Source of the DNA: a virus
Taxonomy: Duplodnaviria > Caudoviricetes
Strand: one strand, 5' to 3'
DNA: 36,454 nucleotides
Virus record (IMG/VR): IMGVR_UViG_3300028396_000019
Coordinates: 1 to 36,454 of that record
A program made the translations under genes and the position numbers. Of this stretch, positions 95 through 24,624 are shown in pieces. The notes under the pieces are model-generated. The model was not told the origin of the DNA. It saw nothing but the letters and a program-made list of their open reading frames with translations, and did not search any database. How positions within the stretch are numbered: the stretch's first letter is position 1; each line of letters begins with the position of its first letter.

Positions 95-1072
95 TTAAAA
101 TGCTGTGGACCAGTCCATTGTGCCCTTACTGTAATTTGTAACTCTATTTGCAAAGAAATCAGTTTGCTGTTTTCCTGCTATAACTGCATCAAACCATTTC
201 ATAGTCTTTAATGCGCCTTTATCAATATCTTCAGATGGGATTAATGGTGCAAGCCCTAAATCTCCCATTTTGGTATTAACTCTATGACGTATAAAGTTTT
301 TTAGATCTTCTTTAGATAAATTCTCTAAATCTCCTTGCTCAAAAACCTTATCAATAAAGCCAAATTCTAGATTAATTGCTGCTGTTGCTGCTTCTCTAAT
401 ATCTGCTTCTAGTTTATCGGTTTTTAATTCTGGATGCTCTTTCATGAGTGTTCTGAAAAGCCAGCAACCTGCGTTACTATGTAAGGATTCATCCCTTACC
501 GACCATTCTACTATTTGACCTACTCCTTTAAGTAGATTTCTCATCTTAAATGATAGTAGTACTGCAAAAGAACTAAAAAGGTTAACTCCTTCTGTAAATG
601 CTGAGAAGATAGCTAATGATACAGCTCTGGAATGCCAATCAGGAGTACCGTCATGTGCGTCTCTAACTTTCATCAGGTTTTCAATTTTAGCTAATGTAGC
701 TTCATCTTCTAAGAATTCAGCAAAATCATCTAATCCTAATTCTTCATTTAGTAAAGAGTAAGCTTCAGCATGTATAGTTTCGAATGCACCAAAGGTTACA
801 CCCATCATAATAACTTCTGGTTTCCGGAACCAACTAGTAACTAAATTAGTCCAGTAATCGTTTACTACAGTTTCGGTTTGAGCAAAACCTTTCAGTATTC
901 CACCTATTAAATTCTTTTCGTGCGGCTTCAAATTAGACTTCCAATCTGTTACGTCTTGTGCCATAGGTACTTCTGTATGTAACCAGTGTGCTTGTTGCTG
1001 TTTTAACCAATAATCGAATGCTTGTGGGTATTCAAATGGCTTATAAACCACTCTTTCATCTTTTAAACTCAT
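95..1072 (-). CDS. nrdB: Class I ribonucleotide reductase beta subunit
   Basis: YKPFEYP N-terminus, W30, metal ligands E67, E98-x-x-H101, E161, E195-x-x-H198, radical-site Y105, C-terminal TDFF..RVTNY tail. Confidence 0.97.
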   Translation of the reverse strand: MSLKDERVVYKPFEYPQAFDYWLKQQQAHWLHTEVPMAQDVTDWKSNLKPHEKNLIGGILKGFAQTETVVNDYWTNLVTSWFRKPEVIMMGVTFGAFETIHAEAYSLLNEELGLDDFAEFLEDEATLAKIENLMKVRDAHDGTPDWHSRAVSLAIFSAFTEGVNLFSSFAVLLSFKMRNLLKGVGQIVEWSVRDESLHSNAGCWLFRTLMKEHPELKTDKLEADIREAATAAINLEFGFIDKVFEQGDLENLSKEDLKNFIRHRVNTKMGDLGLAPLIPSEDIDKGALKTMKWFDAVIAGKQQTDFFANRVTNYSKGTMDWSTAF

Positions 1073-1161: not shown

Positions 1162-2520
1162 TTATGCAGTATCTAGACGTTCAACACTAAAAAACTTTTT
1201 TGCTAACTCTTTATGAGTAGAGGTAACTCCGTTTTCATTAGGGATTAAATCATCCATATCAGCTTGCCCTTCAAATTCTATATGACCGTTATTAGTATCC
1301 ATTTTTAAGTTATATGTCATACCGTCCATACCGTATCTATTCTTCATAACATGCCATCTTCCTGTTCCTAGTACTTTATCTTCTTTCATTCGTGATAAAG
1401 AGAAACACATATCTGCTACCATCATTTTATCGTAACTACCTGCTGCTTTGTCTCCTTCAATAACTGAATCTTTAGCTCCCATTCTATTAACTTGAGAAGG
1501 AGTAATGACAGGTATTTTAAATTCTTTAGCTAATCCCTTAGTTGCAATAAACACATCATCAATTTCATCTTTACGTTCGGAGAATTTACCTTTAGAAGGT
1601 GCTTTTAAATAGTCAACATAATCTATAACGATTAAATCTGGTTTATGATCCATATCTATACACTTCTGTATATGTGACTTTACCGTGTTAACAGTAGCTC
1701 CTTTCGGTGGATATTCTTTTACAATCAACCTACCTTTAAGCCCGTTAACGTGATCTTGTACTTCTTTTCTATGTTCATTAACTTCGTCAATTGAGTACCC
1801 AGTTAAGTAGCAATCAAAACGTTTACCAACATAATCTTCTCCTAATTCTAAAGTATAGTAGTTAACTTTATACCCCATCTTTACAGCATGAGCTGCCATT
1901 GCTACACAAGTCCAACTCTTACCACCTCCAGGGTTACCGAATACAATAGCTAAATCTCCAGGTCCAAATCCTCCTTGAATACCTTCGTTTAATACAGGCC
2001 AAGGAGTTGGTATCGTAGGTCTATAGTCTGTTCTATATCTGGACTCTATATCTTTGTTGTATTCATGCCCGATATTTTTATCCATTCCAGCTTTCATAGC
2101 TTTCTCTACCATATTACGAATTCCATCAAAATCTCCTTCCTTTAAAAGATCCGCAGAACTAAGAATTGCGTGTTTCATTTCCTGGTTCTTACAAAACCCT
2201 AGGAACTCTTCTTGAACGTATTCTAAATCGTCTTGGGATGCTTGATAAGAGTTTCGTAACTCCTCCTTTAATGCTACCTGTAGTATTTCATTTTCTATCT
2301 TCTGTAGCTCTACCTTTAACACATCCATAGTAACAGTTGTGTGGTACTTATCAAAATATGTAGTAATTTGAGTTATTATCCACTTATGTGAATCGGCGTC
2401 AAAATATTCTTCTTTTAGTACATCTCTTACGTTAAGTAGAAACTTCTTATCTGTAAGTAGAGATCCTAAAACTTTTAATTGAAATCCTTTGCCGTACTGC
2501 TGTAAACTCTTTAGTGTCAT
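1162..2520 (-). CDS. Replicative DnaB-family (SF4) helicase, T4 gp41-like
   Basis: Walker A GNPGGGKS, YYTLE, Walker B IVIDYVD, SQVNR and KNRYG motifs. Confidence 0.95.
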   Translation of the reverse strand: MTLKSLQQYGKGFQLKVLGSLLTDKKFLLNVRDVLKEEYFDADSHKWIITQITTYFDKYHTTVTMDVLKVELQKIENEILQVALKEELRNSYQASQDDLEYVQEEFLGFCKNQEMKHAILSSADLLKEGDFDGIRNMVEKAMKAGMDKNIGHEYNKDIESRYRTDYRPTIPTPWPVLNEGIQGGFGPGDLAIVFGNPGGGKSWTCVAMAAHAVKMGYKVNYYTLELGEDYVGKRFDCYLTGYSIDEVNEHRKEVQDHVNGLKGRLIVKEYPPKGATVNTVKSHIQKCIDMDHKPDLIVIDYVDYLKAPSKGKFSERKDEIDDVFIATKGLAKEFKIPVITPSQVNRMGAKDSVIEGDKAAGSYDKMMVADMCFSLSRMKEDKVLGTGRWHVMKNRYGMDGMTYNLKMDTNNGHIEFEGQADMDDLIPNENGVTSTHKELAKKFFSVERLDTA

Positions 2521-2598: not shown

Positions 2599-3633
2599 TT
2601 ACTCCTTTTTGTAGGTAGTTAAACCTCTAAAATTCTCTAGCCATGCTTCAGTATTTTTAGTAATACCTTCAATGCCGTCTAGCTCTAACATTCGTAAAAA
2701 AGCACCTGTTTGTAAGTTACTTACTGGTGATTTAATTACGTCTCTTACGTACTGCTTTTCTTTGTCATCTAAGCTTGTTACATGTAGATCCATTAGTTGA
2801 AAGTTTGTTTCGACTCTATCCCATTCCATTATTATCTTAGGAAAGATTTTCTTTACTTTCTTTTCATCTAATTTTGCTTCACATATATCATAAACGTACT
2901 GTAGAGTAGTACCAGGTTTATCAATTAAATCCGGAAATTCAGATAATATAGTTTTTATACCTAATCCTTTTACTCCTGCTAAGTTATCAGAATTATCTCC
3001 TAGTAATGCCTTTACTACATTATAGTTTTCTGGTATTACTTGTAATTCCGCATTTATATTATCCTGTGTAAAGGTTTTCTTTTTGACAGGTGCATAGACT
3101 TCTACTGTATCGTCTACTAACTGTAAAAAGTCTTTATCTGAAGATATAATTGTACATTTCTTAACGTTTGAGTGAGAAGCTAATTTAGCCATATACGCTA
3201 TTATATCATCTGCTTCTAATTTCTCTAACATCATAGATTGCATAGGTAAACACTCTAAATAATCCTGAACTCTATGTAGCTGTCCTATCAGAGCTTCCAT
3301 CTCTTGCTCTTTAGTATCATAAAGTCCCCAGTGAGTAATCCTGCTTGTAGCTCTTTGAGCTTTATAGTTTGGATCTACATTTTTTCTGTTAGCAGATCCT
3401 CCTTTACCGTCCCATACTATTACCACCCTAGTAGGATCAAAGATCCTCGTTACGTACCCTAATGAGCGAAGGAAGCCCACCAAGCCGCCAACATGGGCGC
3501 CTGATGGGTTCATCGCTTTGAGTAGAGAGAAACTACGAATTAACATATTCATAGCATCTACGACCAAGATATGATCGTTTAACTCACGGGGTGGGGTTTC
3601 TTTTAAATTGTTGAGTATGTTTTCGTACGCCAT
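2599..3633 (-). CDS. 5'-3' exonuclease / flap endonuclease (T4 RNase H / Pol I 5'-nuclease family)
   Basis: VVDAMN, VWDG, YKAQR, EADDII, SSDKDFLQL and GDNSDNLAGVKGLGIKT (helix-3-turn-helix) motifs with acidic residues intact. Confidence 0.95.
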   Translation of the reverse strand: MAYENILNNLKETPPRELNDHILVVDAMNMLIRSFSLLKAMNPSGAHVGGLVGFLRSLGYVTRIFDPTRVVIVWDGKGGSANRKNVDPNYKAQRATSRITHWGLYDTKEQEMEALIGQLHRVQDYLECLPMQSMMLEKLEADDIIAYMAKLASHSNVKKCTIISSDKDFLQLVDDTVEVYAPVKKKTFTQDNINAELQVIPENYNVVKALLGDNSDNLAGVKGLGIKTILSEFPDLIDKPGTTLQYVYDICEAKLDEKKVKKIFPKIIMEWDRVETNFQLMDLHVTSLDDKEKQYVRDVIKSPVSNLQTGAFLRMLELDGIEGITKNTEAWLENFRGLTTYKKE

Positions 3634-4706
3634 TAGTCTAGTAGGTTTGGAGATATTGGTGTTTCTTCTAAATCTCCTTCTTCGATTAAATCAAAGTCTA
3701 CTGAACCTACTAGTTTTAACCAGTGTTCTTTATGAGCATCTCTATACTTATCAATTGCTTTTTTATCATCTTCGATAAATCCATGGGACGTCATAACAAC
3801 TCTTCCTCTTGACTGTACTCCTCCAATATGGTTCTTTTCAATCTGTATATTCGTTCTTTTAGCAAATTCTACTTGAAGACCGTTCTTTACAGCTTTAATT
3901 TTTGAAGTACCTGGGTTAGTAATATTACCAAAAGTAACTACTAGTGTTGCATCATACCACATAGACATTCCTCCTTTGTTCTGCAACTTAGGTTGACCCA
4001 TTGGATGCTCTGGTTTCATAGTCCATACCTTATTAATAGCTACTAACGTATTTGTATAAGGTGAATTCTCTTTTCTAGATAACAGAATCTTTTGATTTAA
4101 GTTGTTTCCGAATTGAGTAGACATAGCTCCTGCATTCCATTCGTTATTGTTCTTATTAGAACGTACCGATAAGTCACAAGGAATAGATCCAATAGAATCC
4201 CAAAAGAAACACATATCATAAGGTAGGTTACCTTTGGCTTGTTCGTCCATTAAATCAGCCATGTATACTGCTACTTCTTCAATAGTGTTTAATGAACCTC
4301 TATCAGCATAGAGGAAGTGTCCTTCATAATCTACAACGTTTCCATTTTCATCTTTAACTTCGTTAAACTTCAAGCCCATCTCTTTAGCATGTTCCCATGA
4401 CCATTTCATCTCTGAGATTACAAAGACAGGTAGTATCCCCATCTTTTGAGCGTTTACCGCCGCTTCTAATAAAGCTGTTGTCTTACCGGTATCACTATGC
4501 CCTCTTAGTAATGTAATATGACCTGTAGGTATGCCGGGTAACGAAGTAATATCTACAAAAGCTTTAGAAAGAGGTATCCATCCTTGCTCTTTAAACTTAA
4601 CAGATGAGGAGGAGTACCCTTTCTTCTTCTTAAAGTTTCCTAAGTTAAACGATTTCTGTACAGATGCGGTTGCACGTGCTTTTGTTTCTTCTTTCTTTTT
4701 TGCCAT
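3633..4706 (-). CDS. uvsX: RecA/UvsX-like recombinase
   Basis: GIPTGHITLLRG leading into Walker A GHSDTGKT, Walker B FFWDSIG, GG motif, KNH; TAATG overlap with next gene. Confidence 0.92.
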   Translation of the reverse strand: MAKKKEETKARATASVQKSFNLGNFKKKKGYSSSSVKFKEQGWIPLSKAFVDITSLPGIPTGHITLLRGHSDTGKTTALLEAAVNAQKMGILPVFVISEMKWSWEHAKEMGLKFNEVKDENGNVVDYEGHFLYADRGSLNTIEEVAVYMADLMDEQAKGNLPYDMCFFWDSIGSIPCDLSVRSNKNNNEWNAGAMSTQFGNNLNQKILLSRKENSPYTNTLVAINKVWTMKPEHPMGQPKLQNKGGMSMWYDATLVVTFGNITNPGTSKIKAVKNGLQVEFAKRTNIQIEKNHIGGVQSRGRVVMTSHGFIEDDKKAIDKYRDAHKEHWLKLVGSVDFDLIEEGDLEETPISPNLLD

Positions 4707-4708
4707 AT

Positions 4709-5515
4709 CTATTCGTTGAATAAGTCATCAAATTTATTAACTGTGTCTTTGTTGCCAGCCGTAGCTGTTTCCAAAGTAAAGTCAGTTTTTTGTTGACCTA
4801 AGCTTTCTGGCAGGGTATTATCATTTCCTCCAGGAGTTGCAGTTGTATTTTCTTCTGCTGATCCAGGATTTAAGTAGTTCTGTAATTGTTTCTTGATAAA
4901 CTCATAATCATATTGAGTATGAACATCTACAGGGTTTGGTTGTGTCTTTAACCATGAATCTACTAACGTATTGTTATCTGATAATGGTGTTTGTTTTGGT
5001 TTAATTCGTACAGTAGTAGTTGGGTAAGGATTACCTTGTTGTTGCTCTACAACTAAATCCCATCCGTTAATTACGTCTGTGAAATCACCTACATCTTCAT
5101 CTTCAGCTAAAGCTAAAAGGGCTTTGTAGATAGTTACACCGAATCCCCATAATCTAACTCCTTTATCTTCTTCTCCTCTAACTACTACAGGAGCAAATAC
5201 TCTAGTTTTAGGGTTAATTTTACCTGATAAAGACCAATTGTCTTTGTCATTAGTTTTTCTTAATTCCTTAACAAATTCCTCAATAGGATCTTGTTTACCA
5301 AAGTTAGATAAAGCAACCATAGGGTATTTTCCAATCCCATAGTGAAACTTTAACTCCTTAAAAGGAAAAGCAGGGTCATAAGCAGATGGTACAATACGTA
5401 CTGTCTGTTTCCCTAGTTCCGGTTTCCAAAAAATCTTTGAATAGTCAGTCTTTTCTCCAGTCTGACCGTTGTTGTTTAAGGCATCTAGCTTAGCCTTGAT
5501 CGCATTTAAATCCAT
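4709..5515 (-). CDS. Single-stranded DNA-binding protein, T4 gp32-like
   Basis: FWKP..GKQTVRIVP, LWGFG..IYK, DFTD...G.DL motifs; acidic C-terminus KFDDLFNE; adjacent to recombinase. Confidence 0.85.
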   Translation of the reverse strand: MDLNAIKAKLDALNNNGQTGEKTDYSKIFWKPELGKQTVRIVPSAYDPAFPFKELKFHYGIGKYPMVALSNFGKQDPIEEFVKELRKTNDKDNWSLSGKINPKTRVFAPVVVRGEEDKGVRLWGFGVTIYKALLALAEDEDVGDFTDVINGWDLVVEQQQGNPYPTTTVRIKPKQTPLSDNNTLVDSWLKTQPNPVDVHTQYDYEFIKKQLQNYLNPGSAEENTTATPGGNDNTLPESLGQQKTDFTLETATAGNKDTVNKFDDLFNE

Positions 5516-5547: not shown

Positions 5548-5578
5548 TCAATATACGAAAAATATATTAACTCTCCAA
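5548..5578 (-). promoter_or_regulatory. Putative Bacteroidota-type promoter upstream of SSB
   Basis: Minus strand TTG-N20-TATATTGA. Confidence 0.6.
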
Positions 5579-6022
5579 CTCTATTATATTAAAAAGTTTA
5601 GTATTTATTCTTCTTAATTCTGGACCTTTGGTCAGAAGTATGCAGTTTCTGAAATCTGACCAGTTCACTCTATACGAAGTATCTAACTTGCCATCGTTAA
5701 GTTCTTTTATTAACGTATTTAAGGCATTTATAGTGTATAGGGTATTAGTTTCTTTCTTTCTATGTACTAGTATGGTATTATCTAAAAAATTTGATACATT
5801 TCCAAAATCTACGTTGTAGGTACAAATGTATTCGTTTTGACTTTTTGAATAAAGTACAAATATTTTACTGTATACTATTTTATATTTCTCCTGTATGGAA
5901 GTAAGTACATCATCTAGAGTTTCCTCTGTAGAAAATGTACAAAACAGTTTATTGCTCATATCATCATTATAATAGGTTGCGTCGAGATCGTAATCGAACG
6001 TGGGTGCTGTAACTAATTGCAT
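5567..6022 (-). CDS. Hypothetical protein between polymerase and SSB
   Basis: 151-aa ORF filling the gap in the operon; NKLFCTF and HRKKETNTLYTINALN segments; alternative start M22 at 5959. Confidence 0.85.
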   Translation of the reverse strand: MQLVTAPTFDYDLDATYYNDDMSNKLFCTFSTEETLDDVLTSIQEKYKIVYSKIFVLYSKSQNEYICTYNVDFGNVSNFLDNTILVHRKKETNTLYTINALNTLIKELNDGKLDTSYRVNWSDFRNCILLTKGPELRRINTKLFNIIELES

Positions 6023-6044: not shown

Positions 6045-7370
6045 TTATAAACCTAAATCTTTACTGTATTTAAATTTTACTGGGTATTTGTTATCTTTTT
6101 CTAGTATTTTTTTAATACCTTCTAATGTTTCTTTACCATCTTCCTTACTAAAGTCAAAAAGCAAAGCATCATATGTATAAAGTACCAATTTAGTCTTTTT
6201 ATCAACTAGGTACCTTAATATATCTTTCAATATAAGAATATTATTTGAGGTTTCCAACGATTGCATCATATAATTCATTAATTTTGCTGGATGCATCTCT
6301 TTTAGGTTAGTAGTAAATGGTTTTCCTGATTGAGGATTACACACTATTCCTGTTTCTTTGTAGACTGACCACATATTATCTATGAATTCCTGTATCAGTA
6401 CAAAAATTTCTAAGTCTTTATGCTCTTCTGGTATTTTTCCATATATTGCTTGGAAGTTAATTTGTTTAGCTTCTTTATATTGGTCGTCAGTTATATTTTC
6501 TGTACCAAAATAGTGTTTTGCTAGTTGCTTGTGGGCAGATTCGTCAGTAAGTCTGTACCCAATCTGATCGCAAAGTAACCTAAGGTGATAGCCATCGAAA
6601 TCGAACTCAACAAAATAGTCTTGGGTTGGAACGAAACATTTGCGGTGTTGTTCACTCTTAGGAATAGCAGCGAAATTAACAGAATTAAAAGCATTAGTAG
6701 GTCTAGAAGTAGCATTGTATAAATTATAATAGGTTAGTACTTTCTTGTTATATATATTATATTCAGGTTCTCTTGGATTAAAGTTCTCTACAAAAGTATC
6801 GTGCTGTATACCTAATCCACTTTGTTCTATAAGGTAGAATACTGATATTGCTGTATGATTATAGAATTCAAATCCGTCTGGTATATCATACTCTAATACA
6901 TGTTTAACTTTATTAAATACTTTTTCACAGCTTTCATATAATTTAGATATAGGTATTATCTGATTTATATTACTGTTAAGTCTATGTTTATTATAAAAGT
7001 AGTTTAACGTATTAGTTTCTCTTTCGTACTCTAACCTTTGGTATTTAACCATTGAATAAAGTAGTGCTATATCAATTACTCCAGGTATATTAATATGGTA
7101 GAGCAGTTTTTTCTTATCTAAGGTATATACTTTATTGGCTTTACTTAGAATAGCTATAACACGTTTTATATCTACATTTAAACCTTCATCGTGTTTTATA
7201 GGGATTATATAACCATGAGTACTTTGTAGTAATCTTATATAAATTGCTACAGTGGAAGTTAACTTAGGATGGTAGTTATCATTAGAACTGATTATGTCGA
7301 CATAGCAACCTAACCTAACTAATTTTTCTAATGATTGAAGCTTTGCTTCTTCTTCTACTATATAAAACAT
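6045..7370 (-). CDS. Small, divergent family-A DNA polymerase
   Basis: TSRPTN..VNFAAIP (TGRLSS..PNLQNIP), motif A EFDFDGYHLRLL, motif B AKQINFQAIYG, NYMMQS, motif C YTYDALLFD; only 441 aa. Confidence 0.88.
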   Translation of the reverse strand: MFYIVEEEAKLQSLEKLVRLGCYVDIISSNDNYHPKLTSTVAIYIRLLQSTHGYIIPIKHDEGLNVDIKRVIAILSKANKVYTLDKKKLLYHINIPGVIDIALLYSMVKYQRLEYERETNTLNYFYNKHRLNSNINQIIPISKLYESCEKVFNKVKHVLEYDIPDGFEFYNHTAISVFYLIEQSGLGIQHDTFVENFNPREPEYNIYNKKVLTYYNLYNATSRPTNAFNSVNFAAIPKSEQHRKCFVPTQDYFVEFDFDGYHLRLLCDQIGYRLTDESAHKQLAKHYFGTENITDDQYKEAKQINFQAIYGKIPEEHKDLEIFVLIQEFIDNMWSVYKETGIVCNPQSGKPFTTNLKEMHPAKLMNYMMQSLETSNNILILKDILRYLVDKKTKLVLYTYDALLFDFSKEDGKETLEGIKKILEKDNKYPVKFKYSKDLGL

Positions 7371-19716: not shown

Positions 19717-20256
19717 TTACACTCTTATCCATTTTTTTGAAACAGGTAAGTATATAGCACCTCCTGTATTAAGGTTATCTGTATATCTTGTTACAAGGTT
19801 GTTCCATTGTTCCTCTGTCATTTCTTGATCTAACCATATAGTATCTATAATAATTAAATCATATGTTGCTGAGGTTGTGTATGTATGAATATCTCCTTGT
19901 ATTAGATTAATACTACTATTTAAATGTCCAGATGAATTAGTGAAGTCAATAACTTCTTGGTCTATTTCTACTACATCTACTGTGCTACAGTTTTCTACTT
20001 CGTATAAGTCTTGAGGAATTAAACCTAAACCTAAACCTGCTACCAGTACAGAATCATATGTAAACCCATCAAATGTATCTCTATAAAAAGATGTACAGCT
20101 ATCACACTTACCTAAAAATAACTTTGAGTAAATTTCTACATTAGATACCCACATATCATTGCTAGTAAATTTCATAACTGTAACTCCTTGTTCGTTTTTA
20201 TATACATTGAAGTTAGTTCCTGTGTAATCTATTATACTGTTGTCTAAAAATTTCAT
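19717..20256 (-). CDS. Class I SAM-dependent methyltransferase-fold protein (spermidine-synthase-like)
   Basis: VLVAGLGLG (motif I), VDVVEIDQEVI, IQGD, YDLIIID. Confidence 0.88.
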   Translation of the reverse strand: MKFLDNSIIDYTGTNFNVYKNEQGVTVMKFTSNDMWVSNVEIYSKLFLGKCDSCTSFYRDTFDGFTYDSVLVAGLGLGLIPQDLYEVENCSTVDVVEIDQEVIDFTNSSGHLNSSINLIQGDIHTYTTSATYDLIIIDTIWLDQEMTEEQWNNLVTRYTDNLNTGGAIYLPVSKKWIRV

Positions 20257-20698: not shown

Positions 20699-20729
20699 TT
20701 AATATATGAAACTTTTTTTTATATTCCAA
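20699..20729 (-). promoter_or_regulatory. Putative Bacteroidota-type promoter
   Basis: Minus strand TTTG-N20-TATATTAA, 15 nt before ATG at 20683. Confidence 0.58.
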
Positions 20730-21927
20730 ATCTATTTTTATATGCGTTATAATTCTGTTGTATTTCTTTAAATGTTAAGCGTTTTTTAAATATCTTTGCT
20801 ACTGGTATTTTAGCTTGAGCAAAACCTCCAGTACTTCCTGAGAATGAATTTCCTCCGCCAATATTAATATTACCGGTGTTATCACAGTCTGTACCGGCAA
20901 ATGTGTTTACTTCGTAATGTGCTAGTACTCCATTTACATATAAGTTAGCTCTATTAGATCCATTCCAAGTAGCTACTATATGGTAATATTTATCTCTTTC
21001 AATAGTTGTGCTTATATCATATGTAGTAGAACCACTGCCTGTTCTCATATAAAACCCTAATACGTTATTTGTTGTGTATCTACATAATCCCCATACTCCT
21101 GCGTAGCCTCCTCTTGCTAATATAGTAGTGTTTCTTGCTGGTGAAACACCACTCCAGTTAGCTGCTGCAGGTACATAGTAGATTACCTCTATAGAGAATT
21201 CTTGATTAAAGTCTCTAGGGAAAGTTCCTGGGTCATGTGATATTTTATCGTCTGTTCCATCAAAAGTTGGTTGACCTGTAGAATCAAAAGAGATGTTACT
21301 AGTCTCTATAGTTCCGCTAGTACCTATATTTATTAACGAATTAGTTGATGCTCTACTGCTCTCTGTGTAAGGCGTAGCGTGACTGTTAAGCTCTACTTGT
21401 AGATTTCTAACGTATATAGTATCAGTTAAACCTGCGCTGTCGGTACCTCTAACTCCTAAAGCTAACTTACTATCTGAATTAGCGGTCCAAGAAGCGGTTT
21501 TTCTAATCCATTCACCAGAATTTATCTCAGCATTTGTACCGTTACCTAACGCATTTGTATAACTACCTAGTTGGGTACCATTTAAATTTAAAGTATACGA
21601 ATTTGTATTCTCAATTGATTTAGCTTTATATTCATATGACATAGTTACAGTTCCTCCGCTTGTTATTCCAGTATCTATACAATAAGTTCTCCAACCATTA
21701 GTTGCTGTAAATTCTAAAGTATTGGGGTAATCTGTAGAAACATTTAAAGCACCGGACCAACCGTGTCCTGACCAATTACTGGTGTTTAGAAAGTCTGATA
21801 GCGGTACAGCGTTTGTAGTAGATTCTCCTTTAAAGTATCTAGTTGAAGTATGATTATCTGCGATTCCATACCCTGAATCATAACCGAATAGTAATTCGTC
21901 TTTTATTAAGTGTGGTCCTGTGTACAT
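20719..21927 (-). CDS. LamG/concanavalin-A-like domain virion protein, paralogue 3
   Basis: FDGTDD, FSIE, YYHIVATW, LYVNG, IQQNYNA; CBM-like middle domain. Confidence 0.85.
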   Translation of the reverse strand: MYTGPHLIKDELLFGYDSGYGIADNHTSTRYFKGESTTNAVPLSDFLNTSNWSGHGWSGALNVSTDYPNTLEFTATNGWRTYCIDTGITSGGTVTMSYEYKAKSIENTNSYTLNLNGTQLGSYTNALGNGTNAEINSGEWIRKTASWTANSDSKLALGVRGTDSAGLTDTIYVRNLQVELNSHATPYTESSRASTNSLINIGTSGTIETSNISFDSTGQPTFDGTDDKISHDPGTFPRDFNQEFSIEVIYYVPAAANWSGVSPARNTTILARGGYAGVWGLCRYTTNNVLGFYMRTGSGSTTYDISTTIERDKYYHIVATWNGSNRANLYVNGVLAHYEVNTFAGTDCDNTGNINIGGGNSFSGSTGGFAQAKIPVAKIFKKRLTFKEIQQNYNAYKNRFGI

Positions 21928-23138
21928 TATAAATCAAATCTATTTTTATACGCGTTAAAATTTTGGCTTATTTCTGGTTCTGACAATGGTACGCTGTATA
22001 TAGCTAACCTAGGCATATGGCCGGCTCCGTAAGCATTAGATGGATCTCTTCCGATTCTCAACTTATCAATGTCGTGTGTATTAAAAGATAAGCTTCCGTT
22101 TGCTTTAAATACCCCGTTAACGTAGCATTTAACATTATTTGATTGTCTGCCATTTATTACCATTGCTACATTAATATATTCACCATTTGGATAGTCTGTA
22201 GAATTTGCTACAAACATTGGTTTTACAGAGTTTATGTTAGTCTGAAAATCTATACCTCTATCGGATCCAAACCATGTATGAAATTTCTGTGTTCCATTTT
22301 TATCCATTAGTGTTACAAATGGAGACCAACTTGTTGACCAGTTCATTTTAAACCAATACGAAATTGTTAATGATGTTGCATTTGTTATAGAAGGAACTAT
22401 TGCATTTATAAAATCGTTTGTTCCGTCAAAAAATGGTTGTGCTGTTGAATCAAATGATAAATTCTGGAGCTCCACTGCTGCCGTTCCATGTAAATCTAGT
22501 AAACATTTATCCGTTCCTCTTACACCGTCTGTGAAAGGTGTTACGTGTCCTTTTTGTTCAAATTGTAGATTAGCAACTTTTATCGTAAAGTTAGAAGCTG
22601 TCCTGTAAAATCCACCTGCATTAAAACTTGTCAGTGTTCCAGTAGGCATTGTAATTTGGTTATCCACTCTATGCCATTCATTTGCTACTGTTGGTTTAAA
22701 TAGGTGATTACATTCTACTGTAGAAGTTGACCAAGTATTGCTGTTTGTTAACCAGTGTCTAACGCCGTTAACATATACTGATACTTGTGATTTTAATTTA
22801 CTTCCTGTTGATGTTGAATGTATATAACTACTCCAAGTATACGTCCCACCACTAACTGGTGTTGTAGGTACTGCTGGTGCAAAACTTAAAATAGGGCTAG
22901 TGCTTGCTTGAATAAATCGTACTCCTTTTAATCCACCGCCAAAATCTTCCTTAACTATCGAGGTTGTACTACTAGTAGCATCTGTATGGTTAGAGAGATA
23001 AGGGTACGTAAATAAATTTGTTGTAAATTCACCTGTGTATAGCCTGGTAGGAGTATCATTATCAGCAATGCCGTAGCCGGTGTCATAGCCAAAAACTAAG
23101 TTTTCTTTTATATTATCTATACCTACATTTGTTGCCAT
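21927..23138 (-). CDS. LamG/concanavalin-A-like domain virion protein, paralogue 2
   Basis: FDGTND, TISYWFK, YVNG, IYSVPLSEPEISQNFNA. Confidence 0.85.
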   Translation of the reverse strand: MATNVGIDNIKENLVFGYDTGYGIADNDTPTRLYTGEFTTNLFTYPYLSNHTDATSSTTSIVKEDFGGGLKGVRFIQASTSPILSFAPAVPTTPVSGGTYTWSSYIHSTSTGSKLKSQVSVYVNGVRHWLTNSNTWSTSTVECNHLFKPTVANEWHRVDNQITMPTGTLTSFNAGGFYRTASNFTIKVANLQFEQKGHVTPFTDGVRGTDKCLLDLHGTAAVELQNLSFDSTAQPFFDGTNDFINAIVPSITNATSLTISYWFKMNWSTSWSPFVTLMDKNGTQKFHTWFGSDRGIDFQTNINSVKPMFVANSTDYPNGEYINVAMVINGRQSNNVKCYVNGVFKANGSLSFNTHDIDKLRIGRDPSNAYGAGHMPRLAIYSVPLSEPEISQNFNAYKNRFDL

Positions 23139-23157
23139 ATTGCTTTTTGTCTTAGAT

Positions 23158-23490
23158 TTACTCTTCTGTTCCGCTGAGTGACCATGCGTCTGTGTTTAAC
23201 AGTTCTAATATTTCTGAATGTGTATATTCTGTGTAGTCTTCATTATATATAGAAGGTCTTCCGTACACGCCTGCTAAATGTTCTACATTTACATCTTCTC
23301 CTGTTTCCGGATTTTCGTAAGTTTCTGTATAGGTTTCTTCTATAACCTTAACATCATACTTAACAAAAGTCTTTGTTTCATCCACAGATTTCCTTAATGA
23401 GTCTGCATTAGGTTCTAATACTTGGTTAAAATCTATATTACTTATTATATCTGTCGGTATTACTAACCATCTTCTATTTTCGAATCTCAT
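23158..23490 (-). CDS. Small acidic hypothetical protein within the LamG cluster
   Basis: 110-aa ORF in operon spacing; IDFNQVLE...LRKSVD.TKTFVKY...YTHSEILELL...W. Confidence 0.8.
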   Translation of the reverse strand: MRFENRRWLVIPTDIISNIDFNQVLEPNADSLRKSVDETKTFVKYDVKVIEETYTETYENPETGEDVNVEHLAGVYGRPSIYNEDYTEYTHSEILELLNTDAWSLSGTEE

Positions 23491-23493
23491 AAT

Positions 23494-24624
23494 TTATATG
23501 TTAAATCTATTTTTATATACGTTAAAATTATCTTCTATTTGTTTTACGCTCAATGCTTCATTATGTATTTTGAATACAGGTATTAATCCATTCCAATAGT
23601 AACCTCCTCTACCACCAAAGTTGATTTGCTGTAATACATAAGATGTGTAGTTTCGTGTGCTATGTTGTGCACCATTATTATATAGCTTAGCAACAGATCC
23701 ATCCATTACTATTACATAGTGGTGAAAATCCGTATCACTTACTCCGTTACTGTCCCATGCTGTACCCTGTATGCCCATTGGATTACCGGTACCTGTTGCT
23801 GCGTGAGCGCAGTACAGTCTTTGGTTAGTTCCATTGTTGGTTGCATCTAACCACATACGAGCACCTGATGTTGTATCTGACTTTACTATTGCTTCTATAG
23901 TAAATGGATCTGTATGTGGATTTCTACCAATAAACATCCCTGTATTAACTATATCATTAGTTCCATCAAAAGCAACAATCCCGTCACTATCAAAAGAAAC
24001 GTTTGCTGTGTTTATGTTTGTTGTTCTTTTAAGATCGATTAAACTTTCTGTCGTAGACCGTGATGTAGCTGTCCATGGTGTAGCTGTACCTACATTAACT
24101 TCAACTTGAGGCATAGTCATTTCTATATAGGTATCAGCATCATTAGTGTACGGCCTTAACTCTACATAGTCGTTATTCATAGCAGACTGGTTGACTGTCC
24201 ACTGTAAACGTTGCCAATCTGAGTTCACTTGAATAGTTCTTGTACTACTAAAATCATGTCCTATATATGCGTAAAAAGGTACTTCTGCATTAAAATTATT
24301 TCTAATCCAACAACTCATGGTTACTGTTCCGTTTGAACCTGCTGCAGTTCTGAGTCCTGTTATTGTGGTATCAATACCTTGATAGCTGGCTCCTACGGTA
24401 GCCCTACAGTTAAATGTTGGTTGGTTTTTATATGTATTACCAGTGGCGATTCTTTCTGCAGTATTTTCTGTTCCCCAGTTTGCTAAAGACGGAGGTGCTA
24501 AATTAGTAGTCGGTTTCCCTTGGGCAAATCTAGTAGATACATCGTTACTTGCGATTCCGTAACCGTTATCTATCCCGTATATAAGATTTTCTCTTCTTAA
24601 GTTTGGTCCTCTGTTTATACCCAT
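23494..24624 (-). CDS. LamG/concanavalin-A-like domain virion protein, paralogue 1
   Basis: FDGTND, FTIEA, HHYVIV.DG...LYNNG, ALSVKQIEDNFN; TAATG-coupled to the fibre gene. Confidence 0.85.
   Translation of the reverse strand: MGINRGPNLRRENLIYGIDNGYGIASNDVSTRFAQGKPTTNLAPPSLANWGTENTAERIATGNTYKNQPTFNCRATVGASYQGIDTTITGLRTAAGSNGTVTMSCWIRNNFNAEVPFYAYIGHDFSSTRTIQVNSDWQRLQWTVNQSAMNNDYVELRPYTNDADTYIEMTMPQVEVNVGTATPWTATSRSTTESLIDLKRTTNINTANVSFDSDGIVAFDGTNDIVNTGMFIGRNPHTDPFTIEAIVKSDTTSGARMWLDATNNGTNQRLYCAHAATGTGNPMGIQGTAWDSNGVSDTDFHHYVIVMDGSVAKLYNNGAQHSTRNYTSYVLQQINFGGRGGYYWNGLIPVFKIHNEALSVKQIEDNFNVYKNRFNI

What the first reader, a model, noticed from the sequence alone, without database searches (positions are those of the whole stretch)
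6045..7370. Apparently thumb-less mini family-A polymerase with a His steric gate
Seen, by eye alignment to E. coli Pol I: both catalytic Asp are kept (D257, D401), as are R223, H280, K302, F306, Y310, N366 and Q370. Motif A DYSQIE reads DFDGYH, so steric-gate E710 is His262; R754 is Tyr298; motif C HDE is YDA. Only ~30 aa separate IEQSG from the pre-TSR strand, where Pol I has a thumb of roughly 100 aa. The N-terminal domain lacks recognisable Exo I-III motifs. Established: E710 excludes rNTPs and the thumb grips duplex DNA. Inference: not a normal replicase; possibly a distributive gap filler, an enzyme with altered sugar or base selectivity (primer extension with rNTPs, modified nucleotides), or a subunit needing a partner. 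Retained catalytic residues argue against decay.
Basis: partly seen in the sequence, partly recalled or inferred. Interest (0 to 1): 0.78.

Follow-up and report, generated by a model that had tools for sequence, protein, structure and literature searches.

The report
Thumbless second phage polymerase (divPolA1)
This phage gene encodes a small relative of DNA polymerase I that lacks most of the DNA-gripping thumb and has histidine where a glutamate normally keeps ribonucleotides out; it belongs to a family described by computation in 2024 (divPolA1) and likely works as a short-patch helper polymerase beside the phage's main replicase, probably together with a small, tightly linked partner protein.

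Summary
Observation confirmed. The 441-aa ORF (6045-7370, minus strand) folds like Klenow (pLDDT 97; VIA Z 24.1), lacks about 85 thumb residues and has no Exo I DxE motif. It is 58% identical to gp1 of Flavobacterium phage immuto and meets the description of divPolA1 (Yutin 2024): truncated thumb, dead exonuclease, intact palm, a regular polymerase elsewhere in the genome.

Not in that paper's text:
- His at the E710 gate (137 of 139 diverse relatives, none with Glu), plus an invariant Glu373.
- A conserved 151-aa neighbour: downstream in 102 of 102 distant loci with room, and divPolA1 upstream in 65 of 65 partner loci.
- Natural 332-aa forms that drop most of the exonuclease-like domain.

dN/dS is 0.05-0.08, so the gene is not decaying. 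A regular PolA or PolB was found in 15 of 16 related records and a DnaG primase in 6 of 6, so it is probably neither replicase nor main primase. His need not open the gate, since it is the gate in PolD. Best reading: a distributive, primer-dependent helper DNA polymerase (about 45%). Rival: a CCPol-MP-like two-subunit primase (about 25%). This scan has reported the family before on other DNA.

The parts
6045..7370 (-). divPolA1, 441-aa thumb-truncated family-A polymerase
   Evidence: ORF; Pfam PF00476 E=1.8e-9; 58% identical to immuto gp1; AF2; VIA
6876..7370 (-). N-terminal exonuclease-like domain (residues ~1-165), DnaQ/RNase D fold without a conserved Exo I DxE; keeps conserved H34, H60, E/D62, K87, D100, K143, E146
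6735..6815 (-). thumb remnant (residues 186-212); about 85 residues shorter than in Klenow
6585..6602 (-). motif A D257-F-D-G-Y-H262; His at the E710 steric-gate position
   Evidence: H 137/139, Q 2, E 0; 201/201
6441..6479 (-). motif B Y298..K302..F306..Y310 (R754 replaced by Tyr)
   Evidence: K 139/139, F 132, Y310 137, Y298 102
6252..6254 (-). E373, invariant acid at the position of Klenow A852; candidate partner of H262 (inferred)
   Evidence: (139/139)
6165..6173 (-). motif C Y400-D401-A402 (YDS in 104 of 139 relatives)
5567..6022 (-). 151-aa conserved companion gene (p151); ferredoxin-like beta-alpha core, invariant TIxxHRK and LYxxN segments; likely partner (binding not shown by any search)
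4709..5515 (-). gp32-type single-strand DNA binding protein
   Evidence: PF08804; phrog_1192
3633..4706 (-). RecA/UvsX-like recombinase
2599..3633 (-). 5'-3' exonuclease (Pol I N-terminal / RNase H type)
   Evidence: PF02739 E=3.8e-32
1162..2520 (-). DnaB-like replicative helicase
95..1072 (-). ribonucleotide reductase small subunit

Best explanation
This is divPolA1, a Klenow-fold protein with an intact catalytic palm, almost no thumb and no conserved proofreading motif, which likely acts as a distributive, primer-dependent helper DNA polymerase that adds short dNTP patches beside the phage's separate main replicase. Shown: the fold, the thumb and finger deletions, the catalytic residues, the His gate, purifying selection, the fixed order divPolA1 - p151 - SSB - RecA - 5'-3' exonuclease - DnaB in close relatives, and a regular PolA or PolB plus a DnaG primase elsewhere in related genomes. 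Inferred: (1) it is catalytically active; (2) without a thumb it holds primer-template weakly and falls off after few bases; (3) p151 binds it or the DNA and stands in for the thumb; (4) His262, held by Glu373 and flanked by Tyr261 and Phe306, is a rebuilt gate that still favours dNTPs; (5) its substrates are the primed junctions made by its operon neighbours, that is gaps left when the 5'-3' exonuclease removes primers (the two genes together would be a split Pol I) and 3' ends invaded by RecA, after which whichever replicase the phage carries takes over.
For: D257, D401, R223, K302 and E373 are kept in 139 of 139 relatives at 30-48% identity. dN/dS of the palm/fingers is 0.020-0.039. Closest folds are DNA Pol I types (Z 17.5-24.5 for the top 12), with single-subunit RNA polymerases far lower (Z 7.3-8.8). 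A regular polymerase with intact Exo I, motif A Glu, RxxxK and HDQ is present in immuto and G001-G004; PolA also in G010; PolB in 9 other records. So the replicase changes family while divPolA1 stays. A DnaG-type primase is in immuto (with EGxxD and DxD) and in 5 of 5 records searched. F306 is kept in 132 of 139. His is the steric gate of PolD (PMC7708050, passages). Thumb-truncated Klenow keeps activity with lower processivity (stated in PMC10061031, passage). Linkage to p151.
Against: No call shows activity. E710Q and E710A Klenow mutants are slow mutators (PMC3715850, passages), and R754 is also lost, so catalysis could be weak or rerouted. T4- and T7-type replicases fill their own gaps (recalled), so the need for a dedicated filler is not obvious. 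No ATP-dependent ligase (PF01068) was found in 5 of 5 relatives, so a phage-encoded maturation pathway is incomplete unless a host or NAD ligase is used (not tested). p151 is directly adjacent in only 33 of 102 distant loci. The window is a 36-kb fragment, so this phage's own replicase was not seen.
Confidence: 0.45

Rival explanations
1. divPolA1 and p151 form a two-subunit PolA-type primase, like staphylococcal CCPol-MP: p151 would hold single-stranded template and the thumbless palm would start chains de novo next to the DnaB helicase, for origin firing or restart, while DnaG serves the lagging strand.
For: Of the relatives I read about, CCPol-MP is the only biochemically studied truncated PolA with a small partner and a helicase in one operon, and it primes de novo (PMC7581432 passages; PMC10061031 passages and Discussion). 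It has a short thumb and partial exonuclease domain, as do the natural 332-342-aa divPolA1 forms (11 of 201 ORFs). The last thumb helix, proposed there to be one turn shorter in initiating enzymes, is short here: N232-R243 is 11 residues in 137 of 146 rows against 15 in Klenow and Taq, and the model has a 4-residue helix at 240-243. Motif C is YDS in 104 of 139. In immuto DnaG lies about 100 kb from DnaB, whereas divPolA1 shares its cluster.
Against: A DnaG primase is present in 6 of 6 genomes checked. The helix register is ambiguous: HMMER places only a 2-residue gap there. I recall that apicoplast/Aquifex-type primer-dependent PolAs have an equally short link (not tested here). p151 is modelled with a ferredoxin-like core, not the OB fold of MP. 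CCPol keeps the Glu gate.
Confidence: 0.25
2. The His gate relaxes sugar discrimination, so the enzyme adds ribonucleotides or mixed RNA-DNA, for example lengthening DnaG primers before hand-off.
For: No Glu at the gate in 139 of 139 representatives (137 His, 2 Gln). E710 is described as universally conserved in family A and as the rNTP gate (PMC3715850, passage). The neighbouring I709 position is Tyr/Phe (135 of 139), and R754 and the motif C His and Glu are also changed, so the whole pocket is rebuilt.
Against: Gates that open are usually small residues: PolD H931A loses discrimination, while His itself blocks rNTPs. F762 is kept. The fold search ranks RNA polymerases far below DNA Pol I.
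Confidence: 0.13
3. It is a specialist for modified bases (7-deazaguanine DNA) or for lesions.
For: immuto encodes DpdA, QueC/D/E/F and FolE and replaces its guanines fully (bioRxiv 10.1101/2023.04.13.536721, passages). An exonuclease-dead, open active site would suit bypass.
Against: An immuto-type DpdA homologue was found in only 2 of 5 divPolA1 genomes searched (other DpdA subtypes could be missed), and that pathway modifies DNA after synthesis.
Confidence: 0.1
4. It is the main replicase (with p151 as processivity factor), or it is a non-catalytic scaffold.
For: It sits in the conserved replication cluster whereas the regular polymerase moves and is swapped (PMC11348598, passage).
Against: No proofreading motif in genomes of 155-484 kb; an intact regular polymerase in 15 of 16 records; invariant catalytic Asp, Lys and Arg argue against a mere scaffold.
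Confidence: 0.07

Closest known systems
divPolA1 (Yutin et al., Virol J 2024;21:200, PMC11348598; preprint 10.1101/2024.04.26.591309); type genome Flavobacterium phage vB_FspM_immuto
   Same: 58% identity over the full length to immuto26A_1, same length (441 aa), same downstream gene order, truncated thumb, inactive exonuclease, conserved palm, second regular polymerase in the genome.
   Different: Nothing of kind. The paper's text has no mention of 'steric' or 'gate', and the section I read does not discuss the 151-aa neighbour or the short forms; its figures were not visible to me. It lists 14 phages; here 1096 clusters at 50% identity score E<=0.001 (only the best 150 were seen).
CCPol-MP primase of SCCmec and related PolA-SSB pairs (PMC7581432, PMC10061031)
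   Same: Truncated family-A polymerase with short thumb and vestigial exonuclease domain, a small neighbour gene and a helicase in one cluster; short last thumb helix.
   Different: CCPol keeps E710 and an MCM/D5-type helicase context on mobile islands, and MP is an OB-fold SSB. Here the gate is His, the helicase is DnaB, p151 is modelled as ferredoxin-like, and a DnaG is present.
E. coli Pol I Klenow fragment (PDB 1d9d, 8oo6)
   Same: Overall fold (Z 24.1, rmsd 3.4 A, 427 of 441 residues aligned), D705/D882/R668/K758/F762/Y766/N845/Q849 equivalents.
   Different: About 85 thumb residues and 10-14 finger residues missing; E710>H, R754>Y, H881>Y, E883>A/S, A852>E; no Exo I DxE.
TV-Pol family (Iyer 2008, PMC2579912)
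   Same: Minimal superfamily-A core on viral genomes, near a helicase.
   Different: TV-Pols have a two-helix coiled-coil thumb and the RxxxK motif; both are missing here, and an exonuclease-fold domain is present.

Membership tests
divPolA1 | Full-length homologue of the divergent PolA of immuto-like phages | tested here: met
   58.3% identity, 100% coverage to immuto26A_1. That this gene is the paper's divPolA1 is inferred from its size and position, since immuto's other PolA is canonical.
divPolA1 | Palm with main catalytic residues conserved | tested here: met
   D257, D401, R223, K302 in 139/139
divPolA1 | Truncated thumb | tested here: met
   33 versus 118 residues; model
divPolA1 | 3'-5' exonuclease domain present but catalytic aspartates replaced | tested here: met
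   Fold kept; no conserved Exo I DxE. Exo II/III positions were judged by eye; the model could not be superposed residue by residue.
divPolA1 | Conserved replication genes downstream | tested here: met
   SSB, RecA, 5'-3' exonuclease, DnaB, NrdB
divPolA1 | Same genome also encodes a regular DNA polymerase | tested here: inconclusive
   The window's record is only 36 kb. Met in 15 of 16 related records, including G001 at 72% identity; G008 (48% complete) was searched for PolA only.
Canonical family-A DNA polymerase | Glu steric gate in motif A, RxxxK motif B, HD[E/Q] motif C, full thumb | tested here: not met
   H262, YxxxK, YDA, no thumb
CCPol-MP / PolA-SSB primases | E710 and F762 equivalents kept | tested here: not met
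   F kept, E replaced by His
CCPol-MP / PolA-SSB primases | OB-fold SSB partner | tested here: inconclusive
   p151 model (pLDDT 86) has a beta-alpha-beta-beta core; best matches are ferredoxin/ACT-like at Z<=5.9
CCPol-MP / PolA-SSB primases | Last thumb helix one turn shorter than in Pol I | tested here: inconclusive
   2 to 4 residues shorter depending on register
CCPol-MP / PolA-SSB primases | Primer-independent DNA synthesis | not testable with these tools
   needs purified proteins
TV-Pol | Two-helix coiled-coil thumb and RxxxK motif | tested here: not met
   definition; R at that position in 7 of 139; thumb remnant
T7-like single-subunit RNA polymerase | Closest fold and N-terminal promoter-binding domain | tested here: inconclusive
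   Z 7.3-8.8 against 24.5 for Pol I; the N-terminal domain is exonuclease-like

The most novel reading that the evidence does not exclude
divPolA1 plus p151 is a two-subunit PolA-derived primase of a large, abundant lineage of aquatic myoviruses: a thumbless palm with a His-Glu rebuilt nucleotide pocket starts chains de novo (DNA or mixed RNA-DNA) on a template held by a non-OB partner, and hands them to an interchangeable PolA, PolB or PolC replicase. That would be an independent origin of priming from Pol I and would explain why these phages can swap replicases freely.
Probability: 0.25. Interest if true: 0.72.

Novelty: new member of a known kind. Interest (0 to 1): 0.38.

Why it matters
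The family itself is published, so the gene is not a discovery. It remains a good experimental target. It is a natural family-A polymerase with a fixed non-Glu steric gate, a position the literature calls universally conserved. It is shrunk to as little as 332 aa, kept under strong purifying selection across hundreds of sequence clusters, and tied to an unknown 151-aa protein. A cultured phage (immuto) carries both genes, so sugar selectivity, priming and the partner can be tested directly. The result would say what a minimal Pol I core can do and why these phages keep a second polymerase while swapping the first.

Tried and rejected
Complex prediction of divPolA1 (A1) with p151 residues 20-151 (A2) gave 'no answer' (score 0.11, mark 0.32); it is not used either way.

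p151 identification led nowhere:
- Pfam gave only a weak FecR_C below cut-off; PHROGs none.
- The PDB sequence profile gave nothing under E 0.1.
- The ESM Atlas returned only unnamed or sub-0.9 hits.
- Foldseek PDB gave no E<=0.001; BFVD only one uncharacterised phage homologue; VIA best Z 5.9, a common fold. Weak hits to SV40 origin-binding and RRM domains are not significant.

Other readings and dead ends:
- Decay or pseudogene: rejected.
- Cellular origin: p151 hits in species genomes were 24 contigs, 23 of MAGs and one Prochlorococcus record, which I take to be mis-binned phage DNA (not checked gene by gene).
- The promoter/terminator scan was at chance level (22 versus 18.1 +/- 4.5).
- Attempts to view apicoplast/Aquifex PolA alignments as a control for the short thumb helix returned none or only Taq, G20c and Klenow.
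- Comparing A1 with immuto's canonical PolA was weak (E 0.2).
- Literature: 'divPolA1' occurs only in the Yutin paper and its preprint; a search for an accessory/primase follow-up from 2024 on found nothing; Czernecki 2023 has no 'Flavobacterium' and the passages seen describe no such cluster; Iyer 2021 passages show none.

Full report
1. What is there. The window is a 36,454-base phage fragment (its record is no longer). All its long ORFs are on the minus strand: tail genes, then a replication cluster. The finding is ORF 6045-7370, 441 aa, followed by a 151-aa unknown (p151), gp32-type SSB, RecA/UvsX, a 5'-3' exonuclease, DnaB and NrdB. HMMER alignments to PDB Klenow chains confirm the register: D257=D705, H262=E710, Y298=R754, K302=K758, Q370=Q849, E373=A852, and YDA opposite HDE.

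2. Shape. AlphaFold2 on a 147-row alignment gave pLDDT 97.0 and pTM 0.93. Foldseek's top hits are apicoplast and bacterial Pol I. VIA aligns 427 of 441 residues to Klenow 1d9d (Z 24.1, rmsd 3.4 A); its top 12 rows are all family-A DNA polymerases, and single-subunit RNA polymerases score Z 7.3-8.8. The thumb span E182-Y215 is 33 residues (15-35 in 146 other rows) against 118 in Klenow (counted), with one 8-residue helix left. A stretch of 10-14 residues after motif B is also missing. The N-terminal domain keeps a DnaQ/RNase D fold without a conserved Exo I DxE. It does keep its own conserved residues (H34, H60, E/D62, K87, D100, K143, E146), which I cannot explain.

3. Conservation. A word-indexed search found 2198 homologues among 6252 candidates of 242-772 aa. 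The full HMMER scan found 1096 cluster representatives at E<=0.001 and listed 150; I aligned the 139 of these with at least 395 aa. Counts of 139: R223, D257, K302, E373 and D401 139; Q370 138; H262 137 (2 Gln, no Glu); Y310 137; Y400 136; F306 132; Y298 102; position 402 Ser 104 and Ala 34. All 120 close homologues have H262, as do 201 of 201 ORFs of at least 300 aa from fetched loci (these are related, not independent). dN/dS against three loci (two of them near-identical to each other) is 0.045-0.079 for the gene, 0.020-0.039 for palm/fingers and 0.020-0.029 for p151. The substitutions are therefore a fixed family design, not decay.

4. Identity. Among 50,697 phage records only 6 match: four immuto records (58%), a 484-kb uncultured phage and Microcystis phage Mel-JY01. 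immuto has two genes annotated as PolA: this one and a canonical 777-aa enzyme with Exo I, DYTSLE, RxxxK and HDQ. Yutin et al. describe this case as divPolA1: 14 phages including immuto, palm intact, thumb truncated, exonuclease inactivated, replication genes downstream, and a regular PolA, B or C elsewhere. I read preprint sections 14 and 15, passages of the journal version and supplementary file 2 of 3; the figures and files 1 and 3 were not seen and may show the His. The words 'steric' and 'gate' do not occur in the journal text. Earlier notes of this scan reached the same family on other DNA; I had identified it before consulting them.

5. Genome context. A regular polymerase was found in 15 of 16 related records: PolA in immuto, G001-G004 and G010; PolB in G005-G007, G009, G011-G013, W01 and W02. 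G008, 48% complete, had no PolA and was not searched for PolB. W02 also has a PolC alpha match. A DnaG-type primase is in immuto, with EGxxD and DxD, and in 5 of 5 records searched (open frames, motifs not checked one by one). An ATP ligase was found in 0 of 5 and an immuto-type DpdA in 2 of 5.

6. The companion. p151 is adjacent in 78 of 79 close loci with room (83 examined). In the distant set, 136 loci were examined, 5 had no complete polymerase ORF and 29 had under 2.5 kb downstream; all 102 others carry p151 downstream, 33 adjacent and 69 at 0.6-5.2 kb. Conversely, 65 of 65 p151 loci with at least 1.5 kb upstream have divPolA1 (80 examined, 79 positive overall). The same 6 phage records hit with both proteins. 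p151 folds with pLDDT 86 into a beta-alpha core with invariant HRK and LYxxN segments. Linkage alone does not show binding, and p151 is as often next to SSB.

7. How it most likely works. E710 is the rNTP gate of family A and is called universally conserved (PMC3715850, passages), so its replacement is notable. But His is the proven gate of PolD, where shrinking it to Ala opens the gate (PMC7708050, passages), and F762 is kept. I infer that H262, probably positioned by the invariant E373, is a rebuilt gate rather than an open one. With a replicase and a primase supplied by other genes, the simplest role for a thumbless, exonuclease-dead, catalytically intact PolA among SSB, RecA, a 5'-3' exonuclease and DnaB is short-patch, primer-dependent synthesis (45%). 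The main rival is de novo priming as in CCPol-MP (25%). It is favoured by the operon layout, by 11 natural 332-342-aa forms that lose most of the exonuclease-like domain and by a short last thumb helix (criterion from PMC10061031 Discussion). It is weakened by DnaG, an ambiguous register and a non-OB partner model. Relaxed sugar choice (13%), modified-base or lesion bypass (10%) and replicase or scaffold (7%) follow. None of these has been tested by experiment in any paper my searches found.

8. Verdict. The feature is real and well conserved, and it is a member of a published but, as far as these searches show, unassayed family. Interest 0.38; novel case (two-subunit primase) probability 0.25, interest 0.72 if true.

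Noticed in passing
L196, L197, L207, L210, L213, L217-L221, L228: 11 of 201 divPolA1 ORFs are natural 332-342-aa forms lacking about 100 residues of the exonuclease-like domain (in L197 the thumb span is only about 15 residues), with all active-site residues and the His gate kept.
   Followed up: partly
window 6876-7370 (-): The 'dead' exonuclease domain keeps H34 (141/146), H60, an acid at 62 (146/146), K87, D100, K143 and E146; this could be a structural core or a new binding site.
   Followed up: no
L181:7266-9317 and relatives: In 54 distant loci a variable protein of up to about 680 aa lies between divPolA1 and p151; function not examined.
   Followed up: no
L086 / LR756508.1 (W02), 260623-266900 and 47415-48068: The 484-kb phage has divPolA1, a PolB whose Pfam match is split over two frames, and a PolC alpha match.
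   Followed up: no
G001:C1:1101-2327 and 166339-167562: The canonical PolA appears at both ends of this 168-kb record, probably a terminal overlap of the assembly.
   Followed up: no
window 19717-20256 (-): A 179-aa SAM-methyltransferase / spermidine-synthase-like ORF sits among tail genes (weak Pfam hits).
   Followed up: no
window 20719-24624 (-): Three LamG-domain virion proteins lie in a near-tandem array, followed by a 1651-aa fibre with a peptidase S74 chaperone and a G8-domain protein.
   Followed up: no
L320-L343: p151 homologues in species genomes occur on 24 contigs, nearly all from MAGs of unrelated taxa; likely phage contigs binned with cells.
   Followed up: no
L085 / PP395634.1 50397-58192: A phage recorded from Microcystis carries the same divPolA1-p151-SSB-RecA-exonuclease-helicase cluster, unannotated for the first two genes, so the module may not be limited to Flavobacteriia hosts.
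   Followed up: partly
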